Below are positions 6,310 to 57,927 of a stretch of 62,337 nt of DNA, one piece after another. The notes under the pieces were generated by a model. It was not told the origin of the DNA, ran no database searches, and saw only the letters and a program-made list of their open reading frames with translations. The DNA is taken from the IMG/VR virus record IMGVR_UViG_3300027985_000790, positions 1-62,337 of that record; one strand, written 5' to 3'. Made by a program: the position numbers and the translations under genes. Positions within the stretch are counted from its first letter, which is position 1; every line of letters begins with the position of its first letter. This DNA is from a virus. Lineage: Duplodnaviria; Caudoviricetes.

Positions 6310-7653
6310 TTAGTAGAATCCTTCCAAGGTCCCGCTATCAGTGATACCACGGCCCAGCACGCAAGCAGTAGCTGCCCAAACTAGAGCATCCAGGCGGTCG
6401 GGTGATGCGTCGCCTGACAATGGCTCCCATACGCACAGCTGGTCTTCCAACTCGTTGTGAGCACCTACCATGTGGGCCTCGCCCCGTTCCCAGTAAGCCA
6501 CGATAGGCTCCGCACGAGCGGCCTTACCGCGGCGGGCAAAGACAACGAGCACAGGCAGCTTCTGCTTGTGGCTGGACCCATTGAGCGTATTCTCGACCAT
6601 CTCACCGCCCTGGTTACCTTCTGCCACAATGAAATCAGCTTGCCACAAGTAGAAAGCTTCACGCGCCTTGCGTGACCATTGCTCAGGCGTGTAAACGCCG
6701 GAGTAGTCAGCAAGCACATAAAGCTGCTTGTTATTGCCGTAACCCATGACCACAATGCCCGTCTCGTTTGACTTCTTGTTACTGGAGGTGGCAGGGTCTA
6801 CACCTACCACTATCCGGGTGAACCAGAAGTCGGTGCTGTCTGGGATCTCGTTTAAACGCGACTTATCCAGCAACTCACGATTCCACAAAGCACCTTCTGC
6901 TTCTTCCAGCACTATACCTTCCAGCTCCTGCTGACCCAAGCGGGTGCCCTCGTACTTCTTAACCACCATCTCGAAGAACTGAGGAGCCAAGTTGGCACGG
7001 TTTGAAAAGGTGCTGCCGCGGGTGACCACGCAGTGCGGGTGCTTCATCAAGTCGAGAATCAACTTCTTGGGTTTCGGCGTGGTAGAGATAAACGCTTGCG
7101 GGTTCTTGCCCAGACGCAAACCGAACATGGCCAGATCCCATGTCTCTTCATACCGCCATGCGCACAGCTCATCCGCCCAGATAAACTCATGCTGAGGACC
7201 GCGGAGACGTTCCGGCTCGTCGGCAGAGTAAAGAGCGCACTGTGCGCCATTGGCCCAGGTCAGACGCCGCTTAGATGGCTCGTAAATCGGCTTGCCCAGC
7301 AGATTGCCGAACCGGTCGTAGTCGTGGTCCCAGCAGGACGCCAATATTCCGGACTCCCCTTCCACCATTACGTCCCGGACGTCACCGGACGTCGGCGCGA
7401 TAAGACCACCACGAGCTGCCCCATTGAGAATCAGACTCCGCACCCACTCGCCGCCAGTACGGGTCTTACCCGCTCCACGACCTGCGAGATACAGCCAGAA
7501 TGCCCAAGCACCTTCAGGAGGCAACTGCTCATCCCGACCTAGGAATGTCCAGTCGTGCAGCAACGCTTCTGCTTCCAACGGATCCAGAGACGACCAGAAC
7601 TTCTCGGCCATCTCGGGATCTTGTCGCAGCATGTCAATATGGAGTCTATTCAT
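6310..7653 (-). CDS. terL: Terminase large subunit
   Basis: AGRGAGKT, LRGPQ, WADE, VGVDPA and PDRLDA motifs. Confidence 0.95.
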   Translation of the reverse strand: MNRLHIDMLRQDPEMAEKFWSSLDPLEAEALLHDWTFLGRDEQLPPEGAWAFWLYLAGRGAGKTRTGGEWVRSLILNGAARGGLIAPTSGDVRDVMVEGESGILASCWDHDYDRFGNLLGKPIYEPSKRRLTWANGAQCALYSADEPERLRGPQHEFIWADELCAWRYEETWDLAMFGLRLGKNPQAFISTTPKPKKLILDLMKHPHCVVTRGSTFSNRANLAPQFFEMVVKKYEGTRLGQQELEGIVLEEAEGALWNRELLDKSRLNEIPDSTDFWFTRIVVGVDPATSSNKKSNETGIVVMGYGNNKQLYVLADYSGVYTPEQWSRKAREAFYLWQADFIVAEGNQGGEMVENTLNGSSHKQKLPVLVVFARRGKAARAEPIVAYWERGEAHMVGAHNELEDQLCVWEPLSGDASPDRLDALVWAATACVLGRGITDSGTLEGFY

Positions 7654-8218
7654 CAGCTAGACGCTCTTCATGGGTGTGCAGTTGAGCAAGGCGGACGTGG
7701 ACGTGCATGTCTTCGACAGCGTTGTCCGTGTTGGTCAGCATCAGAAGGTACTGCGTGTTCCGCTTGAGTTTTATGTGGACGTTAGGCGACGCCGCGCCGG
7801 GTGACTTGTTGCCACCTGCGTACTGGACCGGCGACCACAAAGCATTACCCGTGCTGTTAACAGTAGGATCCCGTACCAGTTGCACCAAACCCGGATAGAT
7901 GTTGACGGATGACTGGCGGTTCAGGTTGCCAATGGGTATTGCTGTACCACCTGATACGTCCGCACCTTCGTAGATTATGCCCCGGAAAGAAATGGGAACT
8001 GTTATCGTCAGCGCAGCCAGCAGGTCAACCTCACCTACGGCCAAGCAGATGTACTTGGACTCGCCTGCACCAACAGCTAAGAACTCATAGTTGCCTGTAA
8101 ACATGCGGTTAAGGAGGGTCATACCAATCTCACGGTCGCCCGAATGCATCATCTGGGTTTCAGCGAGAACGGCGGCAGGACCCGCACCGTCAAGACCATA
8201 AATTCGTACTTGGTCCAT
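7646..8218 (-). CDS. Hypothetical beta-rich protein between terS and terL
   Basis: Start MDQV after GAGGAG; overlaps the terL start. Confidence 0.7.
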   Translation of the reverse strand: MDQVRIYGLDGAGPAAVLAETQMMHSGDREIGMTLLNRMFTGNYEFLAVGAGESKYICLAVGEVDLLAALTITVPISFRGIIYEGADVSGGTAIPIGNLNRQSSVNIYPGLVQLVRDPTVNSTGNALWSPVQYAGGNKSPGAASPNVHIKLKRNTQYLLMLTNTDNAVEDMHVHVRLAQLHTHEERLADE

Positions 8219-8222
8219 AGAA

Positions 8223-8675
8223 TCACTCCTCTTCTTCGATAACTTCTGCTTCAGCCTCAACAGTGAGGCCTATCATGGCGGCGAGACGGGCCTTGGCATC
8301 CACGGTGCTTACTTGGATAGGACCGCCACCTTCACCGGTCAGCTCAAGGGTCTTGAGTTGCTGGCGAACGTAAGGAGCTACTTTAGCAAAGGCACTCAAT
8401 GCGAGATTTACATCTGCAAGCACGATCTGCTTTATCTCGCCGGTATCCGGGTCACGGACCTCCCGGTCTTGCATCGCTTGCATACCGATAAGTGCCATCA
8501 TTACGACGGGGTCGAAGTTGGCAACGCCGAACTTTTCTTCCACTACCTTTTGCATCTGTTCCATGAGTACAGCGGCTTTGTTCTTGGTACCACGGCGATG
8601 AAGGCCGCGCTGGCTGCCATCTTTCGCTACCTGCTTGTCTGAATTGATAATTCTTCCTTCACCTTCGCCAGCCAT
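8223..8675 (-). CDS. terS: Terminase small subunit (probable)
   Basis: Position upstream of terL; GTKNK, APY and LELTGEGGGPIQV motifs typical of TerS. Confidence 0.7.
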   Translation of the reverse strand: MAGEGEGRIINSDKQVAKDGSQRGLHRRGTKNKAAVLMEQMQKVVEEKFGVANFDPVVMMALIGMQAMQDREVRDPDTGEIKQIVLADVNLALSAFAKVAPYVRQQLKTLELTGEGGGPIQVSTVDAKARLAAMIGLTVEAEAEVIEEEE

Positions 8676-8913
8676 AGTACCTTTCTCCTGGTGTGTTTTT
8701 ATACAGTTTGATAACCGCTTATAAAGATCTCTTCATTTAGGTTATTCTGAAAGAATAGGTGACTTCGTGTCAACTATAAAGATAGGTGGAAAATGCCTAG
8801 ATTTAGGCGGTTCTAGCGGTGCAAGGTATAAGGATTGGGATAGAATTTTAGCAGCGCCAAAAACGGTATAACCGGGGGCAGGGATAGTGCTAATCCTGGA
8901 GCTCGCCTGGCGC

Positions 8914-9360
8914 TGATAATGATTATCATTTAGGGGTCCCCGAAACGCGACTCATTATCATCCGCACCCGCAACTGCGAATGATTATCAGTACCCGATGC
9001 AACCGCGAATGATTATCACCTCGCCCTTGACTGCGAATCATTATCAGTCGCCCATGCAAACGAGACGCATTCGCAGACGCATCACCTAATGCGAATCATT
9101 ATCAGTCAACCTCGGAACGCGAATCATTATCAGGTGCAATAGGTGACGCGACTCATTATCAGTCAACCTCGGAACGCGAACCGTTCTCATTCGCATTGTG
9201 GCAAAAGGACAACGCGACTAGGTCTCATATGCACGGAAGGTGATATGCGAACAGGTCTCATTTGCGGGTGATAATCGGTCGCATATGAGGTGCAGGTGAT
9301 ATGCGAATGAGTATCAATTGGGTTGTTATGATGGGACAGTGCAAATGCGACTCATAATCA
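8914..9360. repeat. Phased array of about 15 Fur-box-like 15-mers (consensus YGCGAATSATTATCA; first copy TGATAATGATTATCA)
   Basis: Copies start at 8914, 8946, 8975, 9004, 9032, 9061, 9090, 9118, 9147, 9175, 9213, 9246, 9269, 9302 and 9346. Confidence 0.85.
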
Positions 9361-9559
9361 TTTGCAGTTGGAAATCGGGCGCGGGCAGGACGGCAGCAGT
9401 TGTTTTGCGTCTCGTTCGCATTACACATGCATGTGAACGCAATCGCTTTAACCTATTGCATCACGAATAGCGTATCCTGTTTTCCTATCCGTGTATAAAT
9501 AAAAACCGCATCTGCAACCACAAACATTCTGTCGTAACCCATTGTTCTGTAACCTAAAA

Positions 9560-9572
9560 CAACTCCTTGATT
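9560..9572 (-). promoter_or_regulatory. IHF consensus site
   Basis: CAACTCCTTGATT is the reverse complement of WATCAAnnnnTTR; near-matches at about 9535 and 9630. Confidence 0.4.
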
Positions 9573-9655
9573 ATCACCGTTTATGACCATGTGTGGTTTA
9601 TTCTTATATGCCTAAACCAATGAAAACACTAACAAATTCATGATTATATAAATAA

Positions 9656-9719
9656 AAACCACAAAAACCACACCACGTCTTCGTATGCGCACGTGCGCGT
9701 ACACGCGTGCGCGGATGTG
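9656..9719 (+). repeat. 64-bp element, copy 1 (alternating purine/pyrimidine core)
   Basis: 58/64 identical to 43635-43698. Confidence 0.9.
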
Positions 9720-9745
9720 TTTTCTGTGCCTATGCGCCGCCCAAC

Positions 9746-9772
9746 AAAAAGCGCGACCGAAGCCGCGCCTTT
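9746..9772 (-). terminator. Intrinsic terminator
   Basis: GGCGCGG-CTTCGG-TCGCGCT hairpin followed by TTTT on the minus strand. Confidence 0.8.
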
Positions 9773-9788
9773 CTCGAACGTTTAAACA

Positions 9789-9947
9789 TCAGAAACGATA
9801 CACGACCATCTCGTAAATGAACCAACGCCCAACGTCGTCCCGATACACGATGCGCGTCTCACCGTCGATGAACGTCACCTCGCCTTCGTCTACGTCATAA
9901 ACCACGACCACTTCTGTACCGTGCTGACTGACCGCTGTAAATTCCAT
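9789..9947 (-). CDS. Small hypothetical protein (52 aa, MEFTAVSQHG...)
   Basis: Read by hand; follows 9951..10133 and precedes the terminator. Confidence 0.6.
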   Translation of the reverse strand: MEFTAVSQHGTEVVVVYDVDEGEVTFIDGETRIVYRDDVGRWFIYEMVVYRF

Positions 9948-9950
9948 GAT

Positions 9951-10133
9951 TCATTCCCCCATCCAAATGGCGACGCTGTCTTCCGCGTCGCACGTCATAC
10001 ATGCGATAATTTCGGCTGCCTGTTCAATGATAGCCGCGTCCGTTGCGTCATCGCCCAACAATTCACGTGCCTCTGCGATGCAGGCAACGACGAAGGCCCG
10101 GTAGGTTTCATGTCTTTCTGTAATTGCGTCCAT
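9951..10133 (-). CDS. Hypothetical protein
   Basis: GAGGA RBS; conserved promoter upstream. Confidence 0.7.
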   Translation of the reverse strand: MDAITERHETYRAFVVACIAEARELLGDDATDAAIIEQAAEIIACMTCDAEDSVAIWMGE

Positions 10134-10165
10134 GATGCAATCCTCAATTCGTTTATCACATTATT

Positions 10166-10196
10166 ATTATGACGCATAAATCCTTTATTTGCGTAC
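10166..10196 (-). promoter_or_regulatory. Promoter-like motif GTACGCAAA-N15-TCATAAT
   Basis: Three 31-bp copies, each oriented towards a small gene. Confidence 0.6.
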
Positions 10197-10411
10197 CGAT
10201 TGCAAAAATTCTTTTCATTCTTTCTGCGACTGATTCTCATTCGCGCACCTCACAGATCACGTCACATTCGCATCCTATGCACCCATCAATGCACTTGCAT
10301 CAACCAGACATGCGACGCAGCAGCGTGCGATTCACGAGGTTTTACGATACCCCCGGGGAGTATTTCACGAATCATGAAAACACGACTGATACTCATTCGC
10401 ATCAAACACGC

Positions 10412-10769: not shown

Positions 10770-10806
10770 GACACACCTCCCGATAACAAATTAAACCTTC
10801 ATTATC

Positions 10807-10899
10807 ATTATGACGCATAGCTCACCTTTTTGCGTACTCGAAAATAAAAAATTTATTTTGCATTGTGAGTACGCAAAACCTTTAAAGGTGAATCATAAT
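10807..10899. promoter_or_regulatory. Divergent pair of GTACGCAAA-N15-TCATAAT promoters
   Basis: 10807-10837 (minus) and 10869-10899 (plus) with an A/T tract between them. Confidence 0.6.
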
Positions 10900-10929
10900 A
10901 AACATGTAACAACAAACGAGGATAACATC

Positions 10930-11150: not shown

Positions 11151-11176
11151 AGCCGAGCCATTGCGCTCGGCTTTTT
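11151..11176 (+). terminator. Intrinsic terminator
   Basis: AGCCGAGC/GCTCGGCT stem followed by a T run. Confidence 0.75.
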
Positions 11177-11278
11177 GCGACTGATTCTCATTCGCGCACC
11201 TTATTGCGTCTAAATCTCATTTACGACCAAGTCGCATTCGTATATGCACCTCCCTGCATGTACGTCTGCGACCGTTTT

Positions 11279-11584
11279 TCAAAAACCCCGAGCGACATTT
11301 TGCTCAAGCCGCTCAATGGCCCACTCAACGAACTGCATCCTCAGCGGGTTGGCCCAGAAGCCACCTTCCTGGTGTGCATCACGGCAGTAGCCAGCACAGT
11401 GGCCATTGATGAACCAGGAGGGATTGAACACCACACCTCGCTCCTTGCACCACTGCTCGGCCAGTACAAGCATCTCCCACTCGGCCCAGAGGCCTGCCGT
11501 AAACTCCACATTGAAGCAGATTGCTTCATCCGGGAACAGCGGCCCCTCGTTCTTTATCAGCCGTAGCGCCTGTAGCAAACTCAT
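11279..11584 (-). CDS. Paralog family 1 member (subtype A)
   Basis: LLxALxxIKxxGP...IC.N...WxNPxR motif; ATGA overlap. Confidence 0.8.
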   Translation of the reverse strand: MSLLQALRLIKNEGPLFPDEAICFNVEFTAGLWAEWEMLVLAEQWCKERGVVFNPSWFINGHCAGYCRDAHQEGGFWANPLRMQFVEWAIERLEQNVARGF

Positions 11585-11892
11585 GCAAGCCATGCGAGCA
11601 CCCTCCGGAAGAAGGTTTGTTCACGCAGCAGGCACTTGGCTACATGACGAGCAAGGTCCCGCCGAAGGTCGCCATACTCACCTTCATACAAGGTGAAGTG
11701 TTCCCAGTAAGCGTCTGCCCCACCAGGCACTGGGAAGGTTTTGCTTCCTGAGAAGAACTCCCACGACTGAGAATGCTCCTTCACTTCTTTCTTAGCTCCC
11801 GCATTGCAGCAGATGCCCACAATATCGGAAAACCCGGGAATGTAGCGCTCCCGCCCGTAGGCAATGAGAAGCAGTTTCGTTACCTTGTTCAT
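11581..11892 (-). CDS. Paralog family 1 member (subtype B)
   Basis: GIC...WEFFSG...FPVP...LYEGEYG.LRRDLA. Confidence 0.8.
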   Translation of the reverse strand: MNKVTKLLLIAYGRERYIPGFSDIVGICCNAGAKKEVKEHSQSWEFFSGSKTFPVPGGADAYWEHFTLYEGEYGDLRRDLARHVAKCLLREQTFFRRVLAWLA

Positions 11893-12224
11893 TCGACCCC
11901 CAAGTCATCTTCGAGCCACGCGATAGCCCAGTGTAGGAAGGACAGCCTTACCGGGTTGCTCCAGAAGGTGCCGCTTGCTTTCTCGTCCTCCCACTCCTTC
12001 CACCCGCCAACCCAGAAGGCAGGGCAGTATTCACGTCCTGTCCTCGTGGCCCACTCCTTAGACAGGTAACGAAGAGCATCCGAAACGGCACGCGCCTCCC
12101 ACGGGTCGTTAACGTGGTTGATGGCACCTAATGCAACGTTGCCACACAGGGCTTGCTTCTTGTTCTCAGGGCCGTGCCGCTTGATACGCAGCAGCACGTC
12201 CAGGAGCTTCCGCTTGCTACTCAT
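11889..12224 (-). CDS. Paralog family 1 member (subtype A)
   Basis: IKRHGP..ALCGN...FWSNPVRLSFLHWAI. Confidence 0.8.
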   Translation of the reverse strand: MSSKRKLLDVLLRIKRHGPENKKQALCGNVALGAINHVNDPWEARAVSDALRYLSKEWATRTGREYCPAFWVGGWKEWEDEKASGTFWSNPVRLSFLHWAIAWLEDDLGVE

Positions 12225-12414
12225 CGTCGTCCTCCTCGTTGCTCGGCAGGCCGCCGTTTTCCGCGGCGTCGACCAGTTGGTATGCCATGTCCACGAGACG
12301 CATCATGGCTTCCTGTTCTTCGGGTGACAAGCTGCAGCCGTTGTCAATGGCCTGCAGGCAGTCCTGGAAGTCGCGTGCCGTATTCTGAAAGCGGCAGTAG
12401 CTCATGTTACTCAT
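12217..12414 (-). CDS. Hypothetical protein (MSNMSYCRFQNT...)
   Basis: GAGG RBS; tight packing with neighbours. Confidence 0.7.
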   Translation of the reverse strand: MSNMSYCRFQNTARDFQDCLQAIDNGCSLSPEEQEAMMRLVDMAYQLVDAAENGGLPSNEEDDDE

Positions 12415-12748
12415 AGCAGTATTCCTCAAGGTAGTCAATAGCAAAGTGCAGGAAGTCGAGGCGGACAGGATTGCTCCAGAAGGTTTCGTCTTCCAGCTCC
12501 TTGTCCCAGGCTTCTTCACCTTCGAGCCAGTAGTAGTGAGTGAACTTCTGCCCGCGGTCGTAGCACCAGACCTCACCAATGCTGCTGAGGAGGTTCTCAA
12601 GGATCTGGCTCTCAAACAGTTCCATCTCCTCCCCACGAAGCACGCGGTTGGCGTGCATCATGTTGGAGCACAAAGCATGGCATGAACGAGTAGGCCCGTG
12701 GCGCTTTATCTCGTTCAGCGCGTTAAGCAGCAGTTGATGTTTAAACAT
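12407..12748 (-). CDS. Paralog family 1 member (subtype A)
   Basis: Start MFKHQ; IKRHGP..ALCSN...FWSNPVRLDFLHFAI. Confidence 0.8.
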   Translation of the reverse strand: MFKHQLLLNALNEIKRHGPTRSCHALCSNMMHANRVLRGEEMELFESQILENLLSSIGEVWCYDRGQKFTHYYWLEGEEAWDKELEDETFWSNPVRLDFLHFAIDYLEEYCYE

Positions 12749-12758
12749 GATCTTTCTC

Positions 12759-12989
12759 CTATTCTGCCAGCTCAGGCCAGCCTTTGGTGGTCGGATCAAT
12801 GGGCAAGCCAAGCTGCTCCACGAGTTCATCGTAGTCGGGAGAAACTTCCTCCCAGGTATCGGCATCAGCGAACAGTTCACGGCCACTGGCATCCTTACCA
12901 CAGTAGCGGACTAGGTCCCCGTACTGCGGTTGTCCATCAAAGTCCAGTATCATGCAGCAGTACATGCCACCTTTTACGAGCTTATCCAT
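12759..12989 (-). CDS. Hypothetical protein
   Basis: ORF with RBS; operon packing. Confidence 0.65.
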   Translation of the reverse strand: MDKLVKGGMYCCMILDFDGQPQYGDLVRYCGKDASGRELFADADTWEEVSPDYDELVEQLGLPIDPTTKGWPELAE

Positions 12990-13258: not shown

Positions 13259-13621
13259 TTAAACGGGAAAATCCAGCTCCTCGGTCAAGGCGTCGATGGC
13301 GAAGTGAAGGAAGTCGAGACGCAGCGGGTTGCTCCAGAAGCGCCTAAAGCACAGCTCTACCTTCCAGGTTGTGTGCCCGTTGATGAAGTAGCCTCGATTG
13401 TACCAAAGCAGGTGCTGCCCTGTGCGCTGCTTGTACCATGCAGCACCCAGCTCCTGGAGCACAGCGCCAACCTCCCTTGACGTAGCCGAGGAACAGAACA
13501 AGCCGCCACCTGCTACCTGAGCAGTATTGGAGCACAGCGCCCACTCCTTGTCGAATGGCCCGTGCTGCTTAATGTGAACCAAACCCTTCAGCACGGCCAG
13601 CTTAACCATGTACTTGTCCAT
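13259..13621 (-). CDS. Paralog family 1 member (subtype A)
   Basis: Start MDKY; IKQHGP..ALCSN...FWSNPLRLDFLHFAI. Confidence 0.8.
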   Translation of the reverse strand: MDKYMVKLAVLKGLVHIKQHGPFDKEWALCSNTAQVAGGGLFCSSATSREVGAVLQELGAAWYKQRTGQHLLWYNRGYFINGHTTWKVELCFRRFWSNPLRLDFLHFAIDALTEELDFPV

Positions 13622-13634
13622 CTCGCTCTCCAGT

Positions 13635-13649
13635 TGATAATGATTCTCA
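13635..13649. promoter_or_regulatory. Fur-box-like site
   Basis: TGATAATGATTCTCA, one mismatch to TGATAATnATTATCA, just upstream of the RBS. Confidence 0.55.
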
Positions 13650-16218: not shown

Positions 16219-16410
16219 TTAACCTCGCCTTTCGAGGACGTCCAGCAACTCCCATTGCTCCTCCTCCAGGCCGTTTATCTCCTGAGTAAGGTCGTAGAAT
16301 TCCTTGGGCAGGTCGTCAACGTCAAACTTGCGGTTGAACTCAACCTGGCGAGCATACAAGCCGGGCAGGGCTTTAACAATGTCACGAAGACGAGTAGCAT
16401 AGTTGTTCAC
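16219..16410 (-). CDS. Hypothetical protein
   Basis: GTG start after AGGAGGT; TTGCAA-N16-AATAAT upstream. Confidence 0.6.
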   Translation of the reverse strand: MNNYATRLRDIVKALPGLYARQVEFNRKFDVDDLPKEFYDLTQEINGLEEEQWELLDVLERRG

Positions 16411-16569
16411 GGTGCACCTCCTACTGGCGCGGTTCGTTCTACACATTTATTATTGACGCTGCTAGCCGCCTTGCAACCTTATTTTGTTGATCTAGGTCAA
16501 AATCCTAATCATTTATAAACCACCTGCTTTGATGCGTTATATTGATAGTGAAGACAAGCGCTGCTCATT

Positions 16570-16624
16570 TGATAACCGCTTGCATTTGCAGATGATTCTT
16601 ATTCTCATTTGAGAATGATTCTCA
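16570..16624. promoter_or_regulatory. Cluster of Fur-box-like sites
   Basis: TGATTCTTATTCTCA (16593) and the perfect 7-1-7 palindrome TGAGAATGATTCTCA (16610). Confidence 0.6.
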
Positions 16625-16640
16625 TTTGAGAATACGTCTA

Positions 16641-16697
16641 ATTTTCAAAATCCCCGAGCGACATTTCCGTGATTTTCAAAATCCCCGAGCGACATTT
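16641..16697 (+). repeat. 26-bp direct repeat ATTTTCAAAATCCCCGAGCGACATTT, two copies
   Basis: Exact copies at 16641 and 16672; a near copy at 11276-11300. Confidence 0.9.
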
Positions 16698-17090: not shown

Positions 17091-17359
17091 ACTCGTACCC
17101 CCGCGAATGAGTTTACCCACACCTTACCCATCCCCTCAAGCTGTTCTGGACACTGGCAGAACCGCTGAGAGTTGAACTTCTTACCGTTTAAACGGATGTT
17201 AAATTCATGCCCCAAAGGAACTCGTGAGAACGTGGTCAGGGTAACAAGGAACTCAGGCTTGTGCGAGTGGAATCTACCTTCGAGCCAAAGCAGCTCCACG
17301 TCGTCGGGAAGGTCTACCTTAAGGGTGACGCCCGCGAATTTTACCTTATGCGTCCGCAT
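17087..17359 (-). CDS. Hypothetical protein
   Basis: Operon packing. Confidence 0.6.
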   Translation of the reverse strand: MRTHKVKFAGVTLKVDLPDDVELLWLEGRFHSHKPEFLVTLTTFSRVPLGHEFNIRLNGKKFNSQRFCQCPEQLEGMGKVWVNSFAGVRV

Positions 17360-17687
17360 AGTCCAACTCCTCTGTCAGCTTGTCGATGGCGAAGTGCAGC
17401 AGATCCAGCCGCATGGGGTTCGACCACAACGTCCTGCTGTCCATGGCAGTTTCAAACTCATCTTCACCTTCCACAGGATACCACTCATCGCCCGAGTGGT
17501 GGGGCCAGTCGGAAAACAAAACTCCCAGGTATGAGTAGCAGAGCTTAGCAGTTTCAGAACCTTCAGGTAAGCTGGCTTTGGCGTGGTCGCAGATACCATA
17601 GTAGACAGTATTATCTTTACCGTCTTGGTTCCCGTGCTTCTTTATCCGGATGAGAGCTTCCAGGATTTCGTGCTTAATGCTCAGCAT
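17346..17687 (-). CDS. Paralog family 1 member (A/B bridge)
   Basis: GIC...WPHHSGDEWYPV...WSNPMRLDLLHFAI. Confidence 0.8.
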   Translation of the reverse strand: MLSIKHEILEALIRIKKHGNQDGKDNTVYYGICDHAKASLPEGSETAKLCYSYLGVLFSDWPHHSGDEWYPVEGEDEFETAMDSRTLWSNPMRLDLLHFAIDKLTEELDYADA

Positions 17688-17973
17688 AGTCCAGCTCCTC
17701 GGTCAAGGTGTCAATCATGTAGTGGAGCAGATGCAGCCGGTCGCAGCAGCTCCAAGGTTCCAGCTCGTCGCCCTCCACGGGGAAGTAGTCATCACCCGTG
17801 AAGTGCTCCCAGCTGCGGTACAAGTCAACCAGCACCCGCTGGAAGGCATTAAGGCCCTGTCTACGGATGTGTGGTGGCATCAAGTACAGTACATTGTGGC
17901 AGATGCCATCTGCTCTAAGCAGCGGGCCTTCCCGCTTGATGCGGAGCAGGGCTTCTAGCACCAGGCGCTTCAC
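17674..17973 (-). CDS. Paralog family 1 member (A/B bridge)
   Basis: IKREGP..GICHN...WEHFTGDDYFPV...RLHLLHYMIDTLTEEL. Confidence 0.8.
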   Translation of the reverse strand: MKRLVLEALLRIKREGPLLRADGICHNVLYLMPPHIRRQGLNAFQRVLVDLYRSWEHFTGDDYFPVEGDELEPWSCCDRLHLLHYMIDTLTEELDYAEH

Positions 17974-25377: not shown

Positions 25378-27359
25378 TTTGCTTCGTCCCAGTTGGCTCC
25401 GGTGTTGCTAGATGCAAGCACAGGTACTTCAAGTTTCATGGTAGTTTCCATGGCGTGCACCATCTCTTTGAACGCTTCGCGTCCTTCGGGATTGCGCGGT
25501 ATAGATACGTTCATTTCGTCATGGACGGTGAGGTGCGGAACCAGGACGTTAAAGAGCCCGTCCTCCCACATGTTCACCATGGCCAGTTTCATCAGGTCAG
25601 CAGCAGACCCTTGGAGCAGCGAGTTCAGCGCCTTGTGAGTGAAAGCACGACGAGGACGCCGGCAACGAGGATTGCGGTGGTAGTACTCAATAGCTGCTTG
25701 CTCGTTGTGGAAGATCTTGCCATCACATTCCCATTGCTCAAAGCGCCGACGACGTCCGAGTATGGTGCGGATGATGCCTGTCATGCTCGCACGAGATGAG
25801 GCGGCGTCCAGCATACCTTTGAGGAAAGGCGCCTTGTCGTGGAAGCGGTGTAGGATGACTTCTGCTTCTTGCAGAGATACGCCCAAGTGTCCCGCGAGTG
25901 TAGCTACGCCCATTCCGTACACCACGCCAAAGTTGATGCTTTTGGCGTGCTTCCGCTCCAGGCCGGTCATCTTGGCGGCTGCGTCGTGAGCGTCGGTACT
26001 CGGGTCCCGCAAGTACATCTGCACTACGTCGTTGGCATCTATGCCTCGGGTTATGTGAGCGTAGTGGATGAGGAAGCGGTATTCTATCTGTGACCAGTCA
26101 GCACAGCCCCAATCCATGCCTTCTTCCGGGATGAATATCGACCGGCAAAGAGGGCCCAGCACGGGGTGGCGTGCAGGGATGTTCTGCAGGTTAGGGTTAG
26201 ACGAGGAGAACCGCCCCGACACTGCGCCGCTGTCGTCTGACTTGAGTTGGTTGAACTGGCAGAACAGCCGCCCGTCTACGTGGGAATCCAGAATGTAGGA
26301 CTTGAGGAAGGTTCCGCCTATCTTGTCATACTCCCGAGCACGCACTATCTCTTTAGCCAGTGGGTGTGGGTGAGCTGCCAGCCATTCCTTCTTGAAGGAA
26401 GGCGAGCCTTTGGCCGTTGTGGGATAAGGCAAGTCAAGACGTTTAAACGCTTGGGCGATTGAACCCGCTGTCCACACTTCAACAGCTATACCACACAGCT
26501 CCTTGATTTTCGCCTTGCTGTCTCTGAACTCGTCCAAGGTTCGCTGGTAAGCTATCTCAGCTGCTTCCAGGTTGACTCGGACACCGTAGTGGCGCATCTC
26601 AAGCAGCAGCGGCATGAGGCGGCTTTCCACGTCAAAAACCTGCATGAGGCCCTGCTGGTGGATGATGGGCATCTGCTTGTCCAGGATCTGCCAGGCCAGC
26701 GTGCAGTCCTTCTCGCAGTACTCAGCTGCCCAGCCGGGATCTACGAGATCCATGTGGGAGATGTAGTCCTTGCCGTAAAGTGAGGACAAGCCGTCTGTGT
26801 ATTTGCCTTCTCCCAAATAGTCGAGCGACAGAGCGCCCAGCTTGTAGGTCATGCGGTTCTCGTCAATGAGAGGCTCCGCTATCTGGACGTCTCGGATCTT
26901 GGCGTGGGGGAAGGTCACGTTATGCCGCGTCCGCAACCAGTCGAGGTCATAGATCAGGTTGGCACCTGTTATCTCACCGTGGAAGCGCTGTGCTTCTTCC
27001 CGCAACCAGTCGTAGAAGCGCCCAGGTGATGGTATACACCGGCTGGTATCCGCATGAGCAAGCGGGTAGTATATCGCTCTCGTTGAAGAATACGCGATGC
27101 CCACGCCAACTACTTTACCATCTTTGCGGTGTGCTCCTGGACCTTTTGTTTTGATGTCCGGATCCACGCCTTCGATGTCCAAAGCGATACGTGGAAGCGA
27201 TGCAAACGGCTCAAAGTGGTCAGGAATCTGGTATCCAGGTTTCTTGGGCGCGTTCGAGTTGAAGGCTTCCGTCTTACCACGGCTGCTGGTATCAATGATA
27301 GGAGCAGACGGAGCGGTGATACCCAGCAGGCCGTCTGAGTTGGCCGTAAGGAAAGGCAT
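25374..27359 (-). CDS. polA: Family A DNA polymerase with 3'-5' exonuclease
   Basis: DIE, GRFSSSNPNLQNIP, DWSQIEYR, KSINFGVVYG (Phe at the 762 equivalent) and VHDE. Confidence 0.95.
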   Translation of the reverse strand: MPFLTANSDGLLGITAPSAPIIDTSSRGKTEAFNSNAPKKPGYQIPDHFEPFASLPRIALDIEGVDPDIKTKGPGAHRKDGKVVGVGIAYSSTRAIYYPLAHADTSRCIPSPGRFYDWLREEAQRFHGEITGANLIYDLDWLRTRHNVTFPHAKIRDVQIAEPLIDENRMTYKLGALSLDYLGEGKYTDGLSSLYGKDYISHMDLVDPGWAAEYCEKDCTLAWQILDKQMPIIHQQGLMQVFDVESRLMPLLLEMRHYGVRVNLEAAEIAYQRTLDEFRDSKAKIKELCGIAVEVWTAGSIAQAFKRLDLPYPTTAKGSPSFKKEWLAAHPHPLAKEIVRAREYDKIGGTFLKSYILDSHVDGRLFCQFNQLKSDDSGAVSGRFSSSNPNLQNIPARHPVLGPLCRSIFIPEEGMDWGCADWSQIEYRFLIHYAHITRGIDANDVVQMYLRDPSTDAHDAAAKMTGLERKHAKSINFGVVYGMGVATLAGHLGVSLQEAEVILHRFHDKAPFLKGMLDAASSRASMTGIIRTILGRRRRFEQWECDGKIFHNEQAAIEYYHRNPRCRRPRRAFTHKALNSLLQGSAADLMKLAMVNMWEDGLFNVLVPHLTVHDEMNVSIPRNPEGREAFKEMVHAMETTMKLEVPVLASSNTGANWDEAK

Positions 27360-28081
27360 TACTCAACCCCCAGGTACTTGTGCAATTGGATGCAAGCGCG
27401 GTAGTTGTGCCTCATGGCAAGATCCTTGACTTGCTCCCGGTTGAGTTTGTTCTTCTCCTCGTCCTGCTCGTCGCAGGGCTGGAGGTACACAGGGCGACCT
27501 CTGGGAGGTCTGGCCGGTCGGCCGCCGCGGAGCTTTGCAGCATCTCGGCCTTCATAGTACTGCATGGGTTGGGTGGGTAAACCATCCCGGACGTCGTAGT
27601 CACCTGCCTTGATAACGTACTTCCAGTGGGTGTCCAAGCCGTCCTGGTAGAAGTTATTATGCACTACTTTACTCTTGGGCGAGATTACAGTGGTTACGCC
27701 TTCTTCTTTGCAGATGTCCTGCCAGTAAGTACCTGCCGTCTCTATCTGAATTTGTGAGAACCCAAAATGCTTGAGCCAGCGCACCAGTTCGGTGAGATCT
27801 TGCCGCAGCGGCTCGCCCCCTGTTATTACCGCCAGTTTGCAGCCGTCTACAGATTCCATCCGGGCCTTAAAAGCTATATCGTAAGGAGCAACGTAGGAGT
27901 CCCCTTTGTCGTCCCAGACGGTATCACAGAACCAGCAACCCAGATTGCAGCCGGTCAAGCGAATGAAAGCCGCGGGCATTCCTGAGAAAGGGCCCTCACC
28001 TTGGAGGGTGAAGAAAACTTCCCGTACTTGGAGCTTGCCTGTGTAAAGCTCCGTACCACGACGAACGTTCTTTCCAAACAT
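27359..28081 (-). CDS. queE: 7-carboxy-7-deazaguanine synthase (radical SAM)
   Basis: TLQGEG, CNLGCWFCDT, TGGEP, IETAG, SPK and QLHK. Confidence 0.92.
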   Translation of the reverse strand: MFGKNVRRGTELYTGKLQVREVFFTLQGEGPFSGMPAAFIRLTGCNLGCWFCDTVWDDKGDSYVAPYDIAFKARMESVDGCKLAVITGGEPLRQDLTELVRWLKHFGFSQIQIETAGTYWQDICKEEGVTTVISPKSKVVHNNFYQDGLDTHWKYVIKAGDYDVRDGLPTQPMQYYEGRDAAKLRGGRPARPPRGRPVYLQPCDEQDEEKNKLNREQVKDLAMRHNYRACIQLHKYLGVE

Positions 28082-32573: not shown

Positions 32574-33233
32574 CTAGTGCAGAGTGTGGTCAACCAGCGT
32601 GCTGAAGGATGAGACGTCTCGGTAGTCCACTACCATCGTCTCGCCCGTCTCAACGTCCGTCCAAGCGTAGCCGACCACCTCGCCGTTGTACTGGACCAGC
32701 AGTTCGCCATCTTCGGCGGCTTCGTTCATCAGCGTGATCTGCATACCTTCTTTCTGCTCGGGCGAGAAGCCCAGCGGGGGTTCGCTTTCCAGCTCAAAGC
32801 GGAACTGAGGCCGCTCGTACTCGATTTCCGGCCAGAACGGGATGCCGCCACGAGGAGTGAACTGCCCTTCGACCTTCAGCTCCCACGGATCCAGCAGCAC
32901 CAGCAGCGCATTGGTGATGCGGCGGACACAGGACTCGTGGAACTCGCCTACCTGGCGGAAGCTGTTCAGAAACAGTTTGAGCGACTTGGACTCCACGCAC
33001 CAGTTCTTCGGCAAGTACTTGATGACAATGGTGGCGTAGTCAGGCTGGCCAGTCTTCGGGCACAGGCTGGTGAACTCAGGGCACACAATGTGGAGGCGGC
33101 CCACACCTGCTCCGGCGTTCATCGGGTTGGGGATACGCTCCAGCAAGCTGGGATCCGCACCTTCGTAGTGGTAGGTGGTGTTCTGGTTGCCCAGACTCTT
33201 GAGGTGGTCGGATTTGGAAAGTTTCTTGGTCAT
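32574..33233 (-). CDS. queF: preQ0 reductase with a C-terminal extension
   Basis: EFTSLCPKTGQPD, QueF motif ESKSLKLF, FHE and PRGG. Confidence 0.88.
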   Translation of the reverse strand: MTKKLSKSDHLKSLGNQNTTYHYEGADPSLLERIPNPMNAGAGVGRLHIVCPEFTSLCPKTGQPDYATIVIKYLPKNWCVESKSLKLFLNSFRQVGEFHESCVRRITNALLVLLDPWELKVEGQFTPRGGIPFWPEIEYERPQFRFELESEPPLGFSPEQKEGMQITLMNEAAEDGELLVQYNGEVVGYAWTDVETGETMVVDYRDVSSFSTLVDHTLH

Positions 33234-33241
33234 GGTCTGCC

Positions 33242-34132
33242 TCACAGTATTGAGTTGCCATTGGATTTTGCGAGCGACAGAAACTCAGCCCGCGTCTCCG
33301 GTTCATCTTTGAACACCCCGCGCAAGGCGCTGGTGGTCGTGCGGGTACCGGGTGACTTAACGCCACGGGATTCCATGCAGAGGTGGCGACACTGCAAGGT
33401 TACGCCTACGCCCTTACACTGCAGGTGCTCCATGAGCGCATCAGCAATGGACGTGGTGAGGCGCTCTTGGATCTGCAACCGCCGGGCGAAGATATCCACG
33501 AGGCGTACCAGCTTGCTGAGGCCCAGCACCTTGCCGTCGGGTATGTAGGAGATATGGGCCACGCCGAAGAAGGGCGCAACGTGATGCTCACAGTGGGAGT
33601 AGACGGGGATGTCGGTAACGAGCACCATCTCATCTGACTTCTCTGCACCGTCAGCAAAAACCTTCATCACTTCTTCGGGATCCTGCTTGTAGCCACCGAA
33701 CCAGGTTTCCCAGGCACGTACCACTCGGTCAGGTGTGTCCCGGAGACCTTCACGGTTGGGATCTTCGCCGATCTTGACGAGGAACTCTCGCACCAGGTCA
33801 TGCTTGGTCATGGGCTTGCGCTCCCACGGCAGAAGCTCAGGTGTCACCATGCCCACGTTCGAGCGGTGGTGGCTCTTGGTGCTTACCAGACCCAAGCAAC
33901 CACGACTGTACTCCATGGGCAAGTCCAGGCGGTCGTAGATCCGAACTACTCCAGGGTAGTCGCTGCTGTGGGTTATTACCAAGTTTGGGTCCATAGCTTT
34001 GAGTAGCCAGCACACTTGCATGGAGTTGGGCCCTACAGGCAACATCTCCACCATGCCACAAGTAGTGCGCTGCTTTACCAGTTCCAGCAGCTGCTTAGCA
34101 GCTGCTTGGATGTTGAGTTTAGAAAGGTACAT
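33242..34132 (-). CDS. folE: GTP cyclohydrolase I with an N-terminal extra domain
   Basis: REGLRDTP.R, CEHH, GLSKL.R, LQIQER and HLCM..RG. Confidence 0.93.
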   Translation of the reverse strand: MYLSKLNIQAAAKQLLELVKQRTTCGMVEMLPVGPNSMQVCWLLKAMDPNLVITHSSDYPGVVRIYDRLDLPMEYSRGCLGLVSTKSHHRSNVGMVTPELLPWERKPMTKHDLVREFLVKIGEDPNREGLRDTPDRVVRAWETWFGGYKQDPEEVMKVFADGAEKSDEMVLVTDIPVYSHCEHHVAPFFGVAHISYIPDGKVLGLSKLVRLVDIFARRLQIQERLTTSIADALMEHLQCKGVGVTLQCRHLCMESRGVKSPGTRTTTSALRGVFKDEPETRAEFLSLAKSNGNSIL

Positions 34133-34134
34133 AG

Positions 34135-34956: not shown

Positions 34957-35034
34957 GGTTTTAGTCTCCTGGTTAAACCATCACAGGTTGCCATTTAACA
35001 ATAATACCAAGTCGGTGATATAACAACCACGCGA

Positions 35035-43634: not shown

Positions 43635-43698
43635 AAACCACAAAAACCACACCACGTCTTCGTATGCGCACGCGTGTACACACGTGTGCGCGGATGTG
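43635..43698 (+). repeat. 64-bp element, copy 2
   Basis: 58/64 identical to 9656-9719; lies in a divergent intergenic region. Confidence 0.9.
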
Positions 43699-43796
43699 GT
43701 ATCCGCGGTTCATGAAATCACCGCTTTATTTCAATACGGCGCACGCGTATAATTCGGTTATCTGGTAGTGTCAACTAATTAAGTAAGGAGAAAATC

Positions 43797-57519: not shown

Positions 57520-57927
57520 CTAAAAGAAATCGTCCCTTCTGAAAGGACATATTACATTGAGTCGATACCACGCGGTATCATCACTCTCTACCAGTCGAAC
57601 GTAAGGAGCAAGGTGGCAGGTTATGCCGCCTGACTGCCAGTTGCGAAAGACGGCACAGGCTTGGTCAGCAAGCTCTAAGGCCAGTTTATCACCTTCATCC
57701 GTAGGACAATAAATGCTAATGATTATCATTCCAGGATGTCTGAAGACATTGTTACCTGGGTCTCCAAAACTTGCTGGATACGCCTCAGCTCCTGCAATCG
57801 TCAGCTTGACCCAGGAGGTGCCAACCACAGGTTTGTATTCGTCATTAGGATACGACACAGGCGTAGTGGAGCCCCAAAGCGTATTGAAGCGAGACCTTAT
57901 AGCAGAATTCTGAGAAGCATAGCTCAT
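57520..57927 (-). CDS. Tail terminator protein
   Basis: YPN..Y.P, G...ISIY.P...G, AD.....F; position. Confidence 0.7.
   Translation of the reverse strand: MSYASQNSAIRSRFNTLWGSTTPVSYPNDEYKPVVGTSWVKLTIAGAEAYPASFGDPGNNVFRHPGMIIISIYCPTDEGDKLALELADQACAVFRNWQSGGITCHLAPYVRLVESDDTAWYRLNVICPFRRDDFF

What the first reader, a model, noticed from the sequence alone, without database searches (positions are those of the whole stretch)
8914..9360. Phased array of Fur-box-like sites: a candidate DNA decoy for the host iron regulator
Seen: about 15 copies of a 7-1-7 pseudo-palindrome in a non-coding region. The first, TGATAATGATTATCA, matches the 7-1-7 Fur consensus TGATAATnATTATCA exactly. Nine consecutive copies (8946-9175) are spaced 28-29 bp with variable 13-14 bp spacers, so motif and phase are conserved but spacers mostly are not. 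Known: multicopy Fur boxes titrate Fur (the FURTA principle). Inference: the array lies upstream of terS near the likely genome end, and replication would multiply it, so it could soak up Fur and derepress iron uptake. That could supply the Fe-S proteins QueE and the gpL-like tail protein. It might instead recruit Fur to coat the incoming DNA. Alternatives are TerS binding sites or replication iterons. This is my best candidate for an undescribed system.
Basis: partly seen in the sequence, partly recalled or inferred. Interest (0 to 1): 0.85.

Follow-up and report, generated by a model that had tools for sequence, protein, structure and literature searches.

The report
Phage-borne array of Fur boxes
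A virus of bacteria carries, in a gene-free stretch just before its DNA-packaging genes, a tight row of about fifteen docking sites for the host's iron-sensing regulator Fur, and similar rows occur in several unrelated viruses, so these viruses probably tap into or drain the host's iron control.

Summary
The array is real. There are 15 non-overlapping 15-bp boxes in 8914-9420. Nine of them are consecutive at 28-29 bp spacing. The gap they lie in is 1.1 kb, non-coding, and sits upstream of the terS-position gene and TerL.

The repeated unit is TGCGAATnATTATCA. Its constant GCGA departs from the enterobacterial consensus, but it matches the Fur sites of alphaproteobacteria that have been tested by binding (Caulobacter table, Magnetospirillum footprint). 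In three bacterial MAGs the same double box lies directly upstream of TonB-dependent receptors and an iron-type binding protein.

Phased rows of the same box family occur in about ten other viral contig groups. These groups share almost no proteins with the window or with each other. Clusters also occur in cultured phi92-like coliphages, where the boxes follow the E. coli type. A compositional control pattern found none. None of the 11 viral records encodes a Fur.

Reading the array as host Fur operators is therefore well supported (about 0.8). What the array does is not settled. My estimates are: Fur sink or decoy about 0.4; cis-acting gate on the neighbouring AT-rich region or late operon about 0.35; sites for a phage protein about 0.15. 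I found no paper describing such arrays.

The parts
8914..8928 (.). Box 1. Perfect palindrome TGATAATGATTATCA. It is the box nearest the terS-position gene.
   Evidence: 0 mismatches
8946..9189 (+). Nine phased direct units (TGCGAAT/CGCGAMT)-n-ATTATCA. They start at 8946, 8975, 9004, 9032, 9061, 9090, 9118, 9147 and 9175, with a period of 28-29 bp. The units at 9061 and 9175 are degenerate. There is a 57-bp higher-order repeat.
9246..9260 (+). Looser box TGCGAACAGGTCTCA (3 mismatches).
9269..9283 (-). Box in the opposite orientation, TGATAATCGGTCGCA (2 mismatches).
9302..9316 (+). Box TGCGAATGAGTATCA (1 mismatch).
9346..9366 (+). Box TGCGACTCATAATCA, with an overlapping second box at 9352-9366.
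9406..9420 (.). Last, weak box TGCGTCTCGTTCGCA (3 mismatches).
9554..9653 (.). Most AT-rich 100 nt of the whole window (GC 0.29). It lies on the side of the array away from terS and holds two copies of a TATAAATAAAAACC-like word.
9656..9724 (.). 69-nt GC-rich hairpin element. A second copy (88% alike) lies at 43635-43703. The scan calls it terminator-like on the + strand.
9746..9768 (-). Hairpin plus T-run on the - strand, just after the last upstream gene (9789-9947). It looks like a terminator. I read it by eye; the scan did not list it.
   Evidence: sequence
8744..8773 (-). Promoter-like site TTGACA-18-CAGAAT between the array and the terS-position gene. The number of such sites found is not above chance.
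   Evidence: 1 found, 2.9 expected
8223..8675 (-). 150-aa protein in the small-terminase position. It has no PHROG hit and only a weak, sub-threshold Pfam hit.
   Evidence: no relatives found in viral contigs
6310..7653 (-). Large terminase subunit. A 204-aa gene (7646-8260) lies between it and the 150-aa gene. Portal, RNR, head morphogenesis and PhoH genes follow on the same strand.
10225..10243 (+). Single box outside the array, TGCGACTGATTCTCA+TTCGC. It lies about 30 bp upstream of a repeated promoter-like element in the early region. The same 31-nt context recurs at 11171-11201.
10387..10401 (-). Single box TGATACTCATTCGCA in the same intergenic gap.
11176..11194 (+). Single box, a twin of the one at 10225. 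It lies next to a + strand terminator hairpin.
13635..13649 (.). Single box TGATAATGATTCTCA, 14 bp upstream of an ATG (13621, - strand) that has a GGAG-type ribosome site.
16593..16624 (.). Two adjacent boxes (TGATTCTTATTCTCA and TGAGAATGATTCTCA) in the gap upstream of the - strand gene 16219-16446.
57714..57728 (.). Isolated box TGCTAATGATTATCA in the structural region. It lies inside or at the edge of a called ORF, and its meaning is unclear.

Best explanation
The array is a row of operators for the host's ferric uptake regulator, Fur (or the host's Fur-family iron/manganese sensor).

Proposed mechanism:
- Each 15-bp unit is one 7-1-7 site for one metal-loaded Fur dimer.
- The 28-29 bp period is just wider than the 25-bp footprint of one dimer. 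The units can therefore all be filled side by side, up to about 15 dimers per phage genome.
- In a host with enough iron, the incoming DNA is coated at this spot.
- As the genome is copied, the number of high-affinity sites (15 per copy) grows to rival or exceed the cell's Fur. Fur is then pulled off chromosomal operators and off the phage's own single boxes in its early region.
- The host's iron-starvation programme (receptors, transporters) switches on whatever the real iron level. In short, a non-coding Fur sink.

What is shown: the sequence identity of the units to tested or contextually assigned Fur operators; their excess over chance; their recurrence in unrelated phages; and the lack of a phage Fur gene.

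What is inferred: Fur binding itself.

What is inferred one step further: that draining Fur, rather than a local effect, is the selected function.

My odds: Fur-family binding about 0.8. Sink as the main function about 0.4, which is the figure given as confidence.
For: 1. Motif identity.
- The consensus unit aaTGCGAATCATTATCAgt is 16 of 19 identical to two listed C. crescentus Fur sites, CC_0710 and CC_0028 (compared by eye with Table 3).
- That paper calls TGCGA the conserved motif and mutagenised it.
- The M. gryphiswaldense Fur footprint contains CGCAACTCATTCGCA, which is 12 of 15 identical to the unit at 8946. One dimer binds it, and 25 bp are protected.

2. Bacterial context.
- The exact double box (two units 12-17 nt apart) occurs in 3 GTDB genome contigs.
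- In these three MAGs the box with up to 1 mismatch occurs 14 times, against 0 for the reversed control.
- Of the 6 loci with perfect boxes, 3 lie just upstream of Plug/TonB-dependent receptor genes, 1 lies upstream of an SBP_bac_8/6 binding protein, 1 is cut by a contig end, and 1 is unclear.

3. Recurrence in phages.
- Phased rows of the same box family occur in L130, L131, L132, L153/L154/L156, L172, L173, L174, L175 and L176/L177. Periods are 26-32 bp, there are 2-10 boxes per row, and GC ranges from 30% to 62%.
- The compositional control pattern gave 0 loci against 7.
- These contigs share almost no proteins with the window. No protein family is found in more than 3 of the 10 groups.

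4. No phage Fur. PF01475 was found in 0 of 11 viral records.

5. Cultured coliphages of the phi92 group carry 4-5 boxes within about 110 bp of a gene-free gap. These boxes are of the E. coli type, and 0 of 5 have a TGCGAAT half. The box type fits the one host that is known.

6. Features that favour a sink.
- Box numbers are far above what single promoters use.
- The boxes are tiled tightly.
- Near-identical phages differ by gain or loss of whole units.
- L131 has perfect 28-bp copies.
- The contexts vary, including a gap between convergent genes in phi92 with no gene to regulate.
Against: - No binding data exist for any of these arrays.
- The host is unknown, so its Fur box type is inferred from the phage itself.
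- Only 2 of 11 Plug-domain genes in the two alphaproteobacterial MAGs carry the box. An unbiased word search of their upstream regions did not recover the motif.
- Rodionov et al. note that the alphaproteobacterial Fur box resembles the Mur (manganese) site, so the partner could be Mur.
- 0 of 5 named TerL relatives carry a single box. These include Caulobacter and Brevundimonas phages. The trait is therefore sporadic.
- Evidence against a pure sink. The array keeps its place 0.2-0.45 kb upstream of the first gene of the terminase operon in the window, L153 and L130. It lies 0.43 kb upstream of TerL itself in L174 and about 0.9 kb upstream in L172. In 4 of 4 directional cases it keeps the same orientation relative to that operon. 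In 10 of 10 loci it lies within 500 nt of one of the most AT-rich spots of the locus. A trans-acting decoy needs none of this.
- Titration peaks late in infection, when new host proteins help the phage least (my reasoning).
Confidence: 0.4

Rival explanations
1. The binder is the same (host Fur), but the array works in cis. A row of Fur dimers next to the genome's most AT-rich segment and the start of the packaging/late operon gates a local process according to host iron status. The process could be firing of a replication origin, the start of late transcription (as roadblock, activator or anti-silencer), or assembly of the packaging complex, with Fur as an architectural helper the way IHF helps at lambda cos. 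Any drain on Fur would then be a by-product.
For: - The array sits at the head of the terminase operon in the window, L153 group/L174, L172 and L130.
- It has the same orientation relative to that operon in 4 of 4 directional arrays.
- An extreme AT-rich window lies within 500 nt in 10 of 10 loci. In the window it is the lowest-GC 100 nt of all 62 kb.
- Phage-specific repeats abut the box rows in L132, L173, L175, L176/L177 and phi92.
- In phi92 a consensus promoter (TTGACA-17-TATACT) points at the boxes, and an AT-rich repeat block follows.
- Single boxes at early intergenic spots show that this phage is wired to the same factor elsewhere.
Against: - Large non-coding gaps are where any array must lie, and they are AT-rich anyway. 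The association may therefore come for free.
- The AT-rich spot lies on either side of the array in different phages, and the contexts differ.
- The only promoter-like site near terS lies about 140 bp from the nearest box and is not above chance.
- Fifteen sites is more than known Fur-controlled promoters use (recalled).
- No termini or origin data exist: the runs held only contigs.
Confidence: 0.35
2. The boxes are sites for a phage-encoded DNA-binding protein, and they only resemble Fur boxes. The protein could be the small terminase (pac/cosB-like), a replication initiator (iterons) or a repressor.
For: - The position directly upstream of the terS-position gene is where TerS sites lie in known phages (recalled).
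- The arrangement of direct repeats, even phase and an AT-rich neighbour resembles iteron origins.
- All the viral records are incomplete (24-80%), so a shared small protein could have been missed.
Against: - The same box family occurs in phages whose terS-position proteins are unrelated. The window's 150-aa protein has no PHROG hit, L153's 179-aa protein is phrog_8035, and tblastn finds no similarity between them.
- No protein family is shared by more than 3 of 10 groups.
- The identical double box marks iron-uptake promoters in bacterial chromosomes.
- Phage-specific recognition sites are not expected to be the same across unrelated phages (established knowledge).
Confidence: 0.15
3. The array is a neutral tandem repeat that happens to contain a Fur-like word and has no selected function.
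For: - Tandem duplication by 28/29- and 57-bp blocks is evident.
- L131 and L172 have perfect copies, which could be recent slippage.
Against: - The boxes are kept while the spacers have diverged.
- The same box appears in independent arrays with unrelated spacers.
- The compositional control gave 0 loci.
- Single boxes occur elsewhere in the window.
Confidence: 0.03

Closest known systems
Chromosomal Fur boxes of alphaproteobacteria: the 'Fur-alpha box' (C. crescentus sites, M. gryphiswaldense feoAB1 operator)
   Same: - The same 7-1-7 word with a TGCGAAT-type half-site.
- 16 of 19 identity to two listed Caulobacter sites.
- One dimer per site and a 25-bp footprint.
   Different: - Chromosomal sites come singly or in twos to fours at promoters of iron genes.
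- Here 15 are tiled in a phage, with no iron gene beside them.
Fur titration assay (FURTA): Fur boxes on a multicopy plasmid derepress a chromosomal reporter
   Same: Many copies of a Fur operator on a replicating DNA compete with chromosomal operators. This principle is named in the finding; the details are recalled and were not read here.
   Different: FURTA is a laboratory artefact with one box per plasmid. Here a natural replicon carries 15 boxes, and the effect on the host has not been measured.
Host transcription-factor sites on phage genomes used for regulation. Examples are the fur box before sitABCD on lambdoid coliphages, and LexA, NtcA, PhoB and Spo0A sites in other phages.
   Same: Phage DNA carries operators for a host regulator. 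The sit example was read as a passage in PMC6969025. The other examples are recalled.
   Different: Those are one or a few sites at a particular promoter, and they control a particular gene. Here there is a long phased row, apart from any recognisable regulated gene.
Titration loci and iteron arrays: E. coli datA for DnaA; P1 incA and plasmid iterons
   Same: Clusters of phased binding sites whose job is to hold a protein rather than to regulate a neighbouring gene (recalled).
   Different: Those hold the replicon's own initiator. Here the protein would be a host metal sensor, and the replicon is a lytic-looking phage (no integrase found).
Lambda cosB / pac regions (TerS sites plus host IHF site)
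   Same: A non-coding stretch just upstream of the small terminase gene, with repeated protein sites and a host factor (recalled).
   Different: - The repeated word is shared with unrelated phages and with bacterial promoters, so it is not phage-specific.
- No end or cut site has been shown.
Synthetic or eukaryotic transcription-factor decoy arrays
   Same: Tandem binding sites sequester a factor and reshape the response of its targets (abstracts of PMC7826281 and PMC3322331 in the listing).
   Different: Those are engineered, or are yeast repeats. None is a phage element.

Membership tests
Fur-family operator (Fur box) | 15-bp 7-1-7 inverted repeat close to TGATAATnATTATCA or its lineage variant | tested here: met
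   - Box 1 has 0 mismatches.
- The seven well-kept phased units have 2-4 mismatches to the classical word, and 0-2 to TGMKAATNATTMKCA, which allows the TGCGAAT and TGAGAAT half-sites.
Fur-family operator (Fur box) | Match to sites shown by experiment to bind Fur | tested here: met
   - 16 of 19 identity to two C. crescentus sites in Table 3. Both are predicted sites; which rows of the table were among the 11 validated by gel shift is not visible in the text held.
- The conserved TGCGA is present in the units.
- 12 of 15 identity to the MgFur footprint core.
- The comparison was made by eye, not with a weight matrix.
Fur-family operator (Fur box) | The same word marks promoters of iron-uptake genes in bacterial genomes | tested here: met
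   - 3 Plug/TonB-dependent receptor genes and 1 SBP gene lie directly downstream of perfect boxes in 3 MAGs.
- There are 14 matches against 0 for the control.
- But only 2 of 11 Plug genes in two of these MAGs carry the box.
Fur-family operator (Fur box) | Metal-dependent binding by the host's Fur | not testable with these tools
Small-terminase recognition site (pac / cosB) | Lies next to terS and the genome end or cut site | tested here: inconclusive
   It lies 240 bp upstream of the terS-position gene. The ends are unknown: the record is 'linear, no end repeats', and the sequencing runs are kept as contigs only.
Small-terminase recognition site (pac / cosB) | The word is specific to the phage and goes with its TerS | tested here: not met
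   The same word occurs in about 10 groups with unrelated neighbouring proteins, and in bacterial promoters.
Replication-origin iterons | Phased direct repeats beside an AT-rich unwinding stretch | tested here: met
   Period 28-29 bp. The lowest-GC 100 nt of the window lies 134 nt beyond the last box.
Replication-origin iterons | Bound by the replicon's own initiator, whose gene is usually adjacent | tested here: not met
   The neighbours are terminase genes and small unknown genes. The primase, helicase and polymerase lie at 25-42 kb. No shared candidate protein was found.
CRISPR array | Repeats of 23-55 bp with unique spacers of similar size, usually with cas genes | tested here: not met
   The repeat is 15 bp and the spacers are 13-14 bp. 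The repeat is a protein-type palindrome. There was no RNA family match.
Natural transcription-factor decoy (titration locus) | Many high-affinity sites on a multicopy replicon, with no regulated promoter overlapped | tested here: inconclusive
   There are 15 boxes. The nearest promoter-like site is about 140 bp away, but it is weak. The constancy of position and orientation hints at a cis role.
Natural transcription-factor decoy (titration locus) | Measured derepression of the factor's regulon | not testable with these tools
   This needs infection experiments.

The most novel reading that the evidence does not exclude
Phages of many lineages have independently evolved non-coding 'Fur sponges'. 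These range from vent and marine viruses of alphaproteobacteria to the cultured phi92-like coliphages. The sponges are tiled rows of the host's own Fur operators that multiply with the genome and soak up the iron sensor. This forces the infected cell into its iron-starvation programme. It would be an auxiliary metabolic element made of DNA sites rather than a gene.
Probability: 0.35. Interest if true: 0.9.

Novelty: new variant of a known kind. Interest (0 to 1): 0.8.

Why it matters
Phages are known to borrow host regulators one operator at a time, and to carry metabolic genes that reshape the infected cell. A long tiled row of operators for a global metal sensor, found repeatedly in unrelated phages, would be a different route to host takeover. 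It needs no protein, so gene-based annotation cannot see it.

If the row drains Fur, it links phage infection directly to iron uptake in iron-poor waters and in the gut. If it works in cis, it is a new way for a phage to read host iron status before committing to replication or packaging.

Either way the question is now directly testable. The same kind of cluster sits in phi92-like coliphages, which grow on E. coli K-12, where Fur genetics, FURTA strains and ChIP are routine.

Tried and rejected
Things tried that led nowhere or were rejected:

- DNA similarity of the whole gap to GenBank phages gave no match. The array alone gave 1 weak hit.
- The terS-position protein had no relatives in viral contigs.
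- The TerL search found only relatives at 49% identity in viral and metagenome collections. Their loci and two Dinoroseobacter phage loci hold no comparable tandem array.
- The first collection pattern (three ATTATCA words in phase) was too loose. It returned 120+ loci, mostly AT-rich giant-virus contigs with coding repeats, and I did not use it.
- Of the 9 loci, 5 are not box arrays. L150 and L151 are coding repeats, L155 is a giant-virus repeat, and L152/L157 carry a different GC-rich repeat.
- A CRISPR reading was rejected on size. An RNA-gene reading was rejected because 8400-10200 has no Rfam match at E up to 1. A promoter-array reading was rejected by eye.
- No phage Fur gene was found: 0 of 11 records. 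No integrase was found. All the records are incomplete, so neither absence is proof.
- An unbiased 15-mer search of regions upstream of 11 Plug genes in two MAGs did not recover the box. Part of the reason is that my start-codon choice misplaced two of the upstream regions. The direct count was 2 of 11.
- Five named TerL relatives have 0 boxes: R5C, R26L, Strzyga, Sansa and Pan1.
- Sequencing runs. X1 and X2 hold the stretch but may be its source. X4-X6 hold a relative 90-95% alike whose contigs match the flanks. Those contigs cross the array only in pieces of 33-39 letters at the 80% setting, which may reflect the repeats themselves. All runs are contigs, so ends, depth and strand say nothing. 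I draw no habitat claim.
- Literature. Four searches for Fur boxes, decoys or titration together with phage terms, and one search pairing Fur terms with phi92-group names, found no paper on phage Fur-box arrays (listings only). The one exception is a single passage on a fur box before sitABCD.
- Supplements are closed. Table S2 of PMC2724300 and Tables S1-S7 and Figure S1 of PMC1698941 may hold further sites and the exact consensus. I did not see them.
- I built no weight matrix from the published sites and compared by eye instead.
Full report
WHAT IS THERE.

The window is a 62,337-bp IMG/VR virus record, classed linear and about 80% complete. Nearly all genes lie on the - strand.

Read on that strand, the order runs as follows. 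A block of small genes ends at 9789. A 1.1-kb stretch without credible ORFs follows (8676-9788). Then come a 150-aa protein in the small-terminase position, a 204-aa protein, the large terminase, portal, a ribonucleotide reductase, a head morphogenesis protein and PhoH.

Inside the gap, 8914-8928 is an exact TGATAATGATTATCA. It is followed by nine units that start at 8946, 8975, 9004, 9032, 9061, 9090, 9118, 9147 and 9175, at 28-29 bp spacing. Looser boxes continue out to 9420. In total there are 15 non-overlapping boxes with at most 3 mismatches to a generalised word.

Box columns carry 0.8-1.5 bits and spacer columns 0.3-0.7 bits.

The excess over chance is large:
- 29 matches against 3.6 expected;
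- 16 against 0.93;
- 20 against 1.34, with 12 of the 20 inside 8900-9430.

One correction: apart from the first copy, the units are not near-palindromes of the classical word. They are directional hybrids, TGCGAAT-n-ATTATCA, in direct repeat, with an invariant GCGA.

WHAT THE WORD IS.

The GCGA is what decides the reading.

- Caulobacter. Table 3 of the C. crescentus Fur paper lists sites such as ATTGCGAACGATTATCAGT and ATTGCGAATAATTATCATT. The paper calls TGCGA the conserved motif. The authors validated 11 sites by gel shift and mutagenised the motif (PMC2724300; passages and section 16 read). Window units are 16 of 19 identical to each of those two sites (my comparison by eye).
- Magnetospirillum. 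The footprint of M. gryphiswaldense Fur on feoAB1 is 25 bp long. It holds one dimer and contains CGCAACTCATTCGCA. Two dimers sit on the classical box (PMC4506495, passages).
- Wider alphaproteobacteria. Rodionov et al. defined this 'Fur-alpha box' for Rhodospirillales, Sphingomonadales, Caulobacter, Parvularcula and Oceanicaulis. They note that it resembles the Mur site (PMC1698941, passages).

A scan of one genome per prokaryote species for the exact double unit gave an independent check. It found three MAG contigs: Ectothiorhodospiraceae, Parvibaculales and Rhodobiaceae.

- In all three the two boxes lie 29-30 bp apart, just upstream of a gene with a signal peptide.
- Two of these genes are full TonB-dependent receptors. 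A third locus has a Plug domain. Another perfect box precedes a periplasmic binding protein of the SBP_bac_8/6 type.
- Across the three MAGs the box occurs 14 times, against 0 for the reversed control.

On the other side of the ledger:
- only 2 of 11 Plug-domain genes in the two alphaproteobacterial MAGs carry it;
- one-mismatch sites lie next to unrelated genes;
- an unbiased word search did not recover the motif.

IT IS NOT PRIVATE TO THIS PHAGE.

Pattern scans of IMG/VR found rows of the same box family in these contigs:

| Locus | Boxes | Period | Note |
|---|---|---|---|
| L130 | 2 units | 29 bp | |
| L131 | at least 4 perfect copies | 28 bp | running into the contig end |
| L132 | 4 boxes | | |
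| L153/L154/L156 | 8-10 boxes | 27-29 bp | one phage; includes one TGATAATnATTATCA |
| L174 | 7 boxes plus 1 single | about 32 bp | |
| L172 | 3 | 32 bp | |
| L173 | 4 | 26 bp | |
| L175 | 4 boxes | | |
| L176/L177 | 6-7 boxes | 29 bp | |

A control pattern of the same composition found 0 loci, against 7 for the real one.

These contigs range from 30% to 62% GC. They share almost no proteins with the window. In the stretches I held, no protein family occurs in more than 3 of the 10 groups. L153 and L174 are distant kin, and so are L131 and L132.

None of the 11 viral records has a Fur-family gene, though all are incomplete.

Near-identical phages differ by whole units.

Finally, blastn with two of these arrays hit 59 and 125 GenBank phage records, mostly cultured E. 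coli myoviruses of the phi92 group.
- In phi92, five boxes lie within about 110 bp of an 816-bp gap between convergent genes. They lie downstream of a consensus-like promoter and upstream of an AT-rich repeat block. In phage muut there are four.
- These boxes are of the E. coli type, and none has a TGCGAAT half.
- In two records the stretch is annotated only as 'repeat_region'.

A word shared by unrelated phages and by bacterial iron promoters, and following the host's type where the host is known, is best read as a host-factor site.

WHAT SPEAKS FOR A LOCAL ROLE.

- In the window, L153, L174, L172 and L130 the row lies upstream of the terminase operon. It is 0.2-0.45 kb from the first gene in three of these, 0.43 kb from TerL in L174, and about 0.9 kb from TerL in L172.
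- In the four arrays with directional units, the TGCGAAT half always faces the operon.
- In 10 of 10 loci, one of the most AT-rich 100-nt windows of the locus lies within 500 nt. In the window it is the lowest-GC 100 nt of the whole record, at 9554-9653.
- Several rows abut other, phage-specific repeats.
- The window also has single boxes at six other places, five of them in intergenic spots of the early region. One lies 14 bp before a start codon and two are in tandem at 16.6 kb.

These facts fit a cis element such as an origin, a packaging region or a late-promoter complex. They may also merely reflect that the largest gene-free gap is where any array has to live.

The only promoter-like site before terS (8773-8744) lies about 140 bp from the nearest box and is not above chance.

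HOW IT MOST LIKELY WORKS.

Shown:
- the sequence identity to Fur operators;
- the excess over chance;
- the recurrence in unrelated phages;
- the absence of a phage Fur.

Inferred:
- Metal-loaded host Fur binds each unit as one dimer. The 28-29 bp period is just above the 25-bp footprint, so all the units can be filled at once.
- By mass action, 15 sites per genome, multiplied by replication, will compete with chromosomal operators. This is the principle behind the Fur titration assay (named in the finding; details recalled).

I commit to the sink as the single most likely function, at about 0.4. It follows from what is shown without further assumptions. It also accounts for the number of sites, their tiling, their turnover and the variety of contexts.

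I put the cis gate at 0.35, sites for a phage protein at 0.15, and neutral repeats at 0.03.

A weakness of the sink is timing: titration is greatest late in infection.

Five named TerL relatives, including Caulobacter and Brevundimonas phages, have no box at all. The trait is therefore sporadic, not ancestral.

HOST.

The host is unknown. Several features fit an alphaproteobacterium:
- the TerL relatives infect Pseudanabaena, Dinoroseobacter, Roseobacter-group, Brevundimonas and Caulobacter hosts;
- a tail protein has Phage_BR0599 and phiJL001-type domains;
- the box type itself.

The same box also occurs in a gammaproteobacterial MAG, so the box type is not diagnostic.

COMPARISON AND NOVELTY.

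The unit is a known thing, a Fur-family operator. The arrangement and the carrier are new, as far as my searches go. No paper on phage Fur-box arrays turned up (listings). The nearest item is a single fur box before sitABCD on lambdoid coliphages.

I file it as a new variant of a known kind: host-regulator sites on phage DNA, and titration loci.

Noticed in passing
L189 2484-2591 (phi92, FR775895.2 about 137,000); L190 2505-2595 (muut): Cultured phi92-group coliphages carry 4-5 E. coli-type Fur boxes in an 816-bp gap between convergent genes. The boxes lie after a TTGACA-17-TATACT promoter and before AT-rich repeats (3x TTGAACTTTTCATTTTCAAAAT-like, 4x AAAAACTTTAAATAA-like). GenBank annotates the stretch only as repeat_region, or not at all.
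   Followed up: partly
window 9656-9724 and 43635-43703: A 69-nt GC-rich hairpin element is present twice (88% alike). Assembly contigs of run X1 break at the first copy.
   Followed up: no
window 10159-10196 and 10800-10837 (also + strand near 10860-10900): A repeated promoter-like element, TACGCAAA...N...CATAAT, lies upstream of small early genes. It forms a divergent pair around 10.8 kb.
   Followed up: no
window 11275-11300, 16641-16666, 16672-16697: There are three copies of a 26-nt word, TTTTCAAAAnCCCCGAGCGACATTT. Two are in tandem right next to the double Fur-type box at 16.6 kb.
   Followed up: no
window 11889-12224, 12407-12901, about 13259-13621, about 17300-17760 (- strand): A family of at least five paralogous small genes shares a conserved C-terminal stretch (repeat family D1). 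One member starts 14 bp after a Fur-type box.
   Followed up: no
window 27359-28081, 32574-35520: A 7-deazaguanine gene set is present: QueF-like, GTP cyclohydrolase I, QueC and QueD (PTPS). A radical-SAM protein, below Pfam's cut-off, lies 4.5 kb away. The phage probably modifies its DNA.
   Followed up: partly
window 7654-8175: In contigs of runs X4-X6, which hold a relative 90-95% alike, the 204-aa gene between the terS-position gene and TerL is replaced by 523 unrelated letters. The flanks are kept.
   Followed up: no
L176 10560-10730, L177 3370-3480; L132 (reverse strand) before the boxes; L173 6760-6920; L175: Phage-specific short tandem repeats lie directly beside the Fur-type rows in several other phages. 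Examples are CCGGCTAGG...TATCT units, nine GGCAGGCAAGG-type units, and a 40-nt unit repeated three times.
   Followed up: no
L152 222-292 and L157 9042-9112: Two related GC-rich viral contigs carry a different phased repeat (GGCGAGACGTTCTCA-like, period about 35 bp). It met the loose pattern but is not a Fur-type box.
   Followed up: no
L160 and L166 (Ectothiorhodospiraceae MAG, two contigs): The same double-box promoter and the same first 30 or so codons occur on two contigs. This is either a duplicated receptor gene or an assembly split.
   Followed up: no
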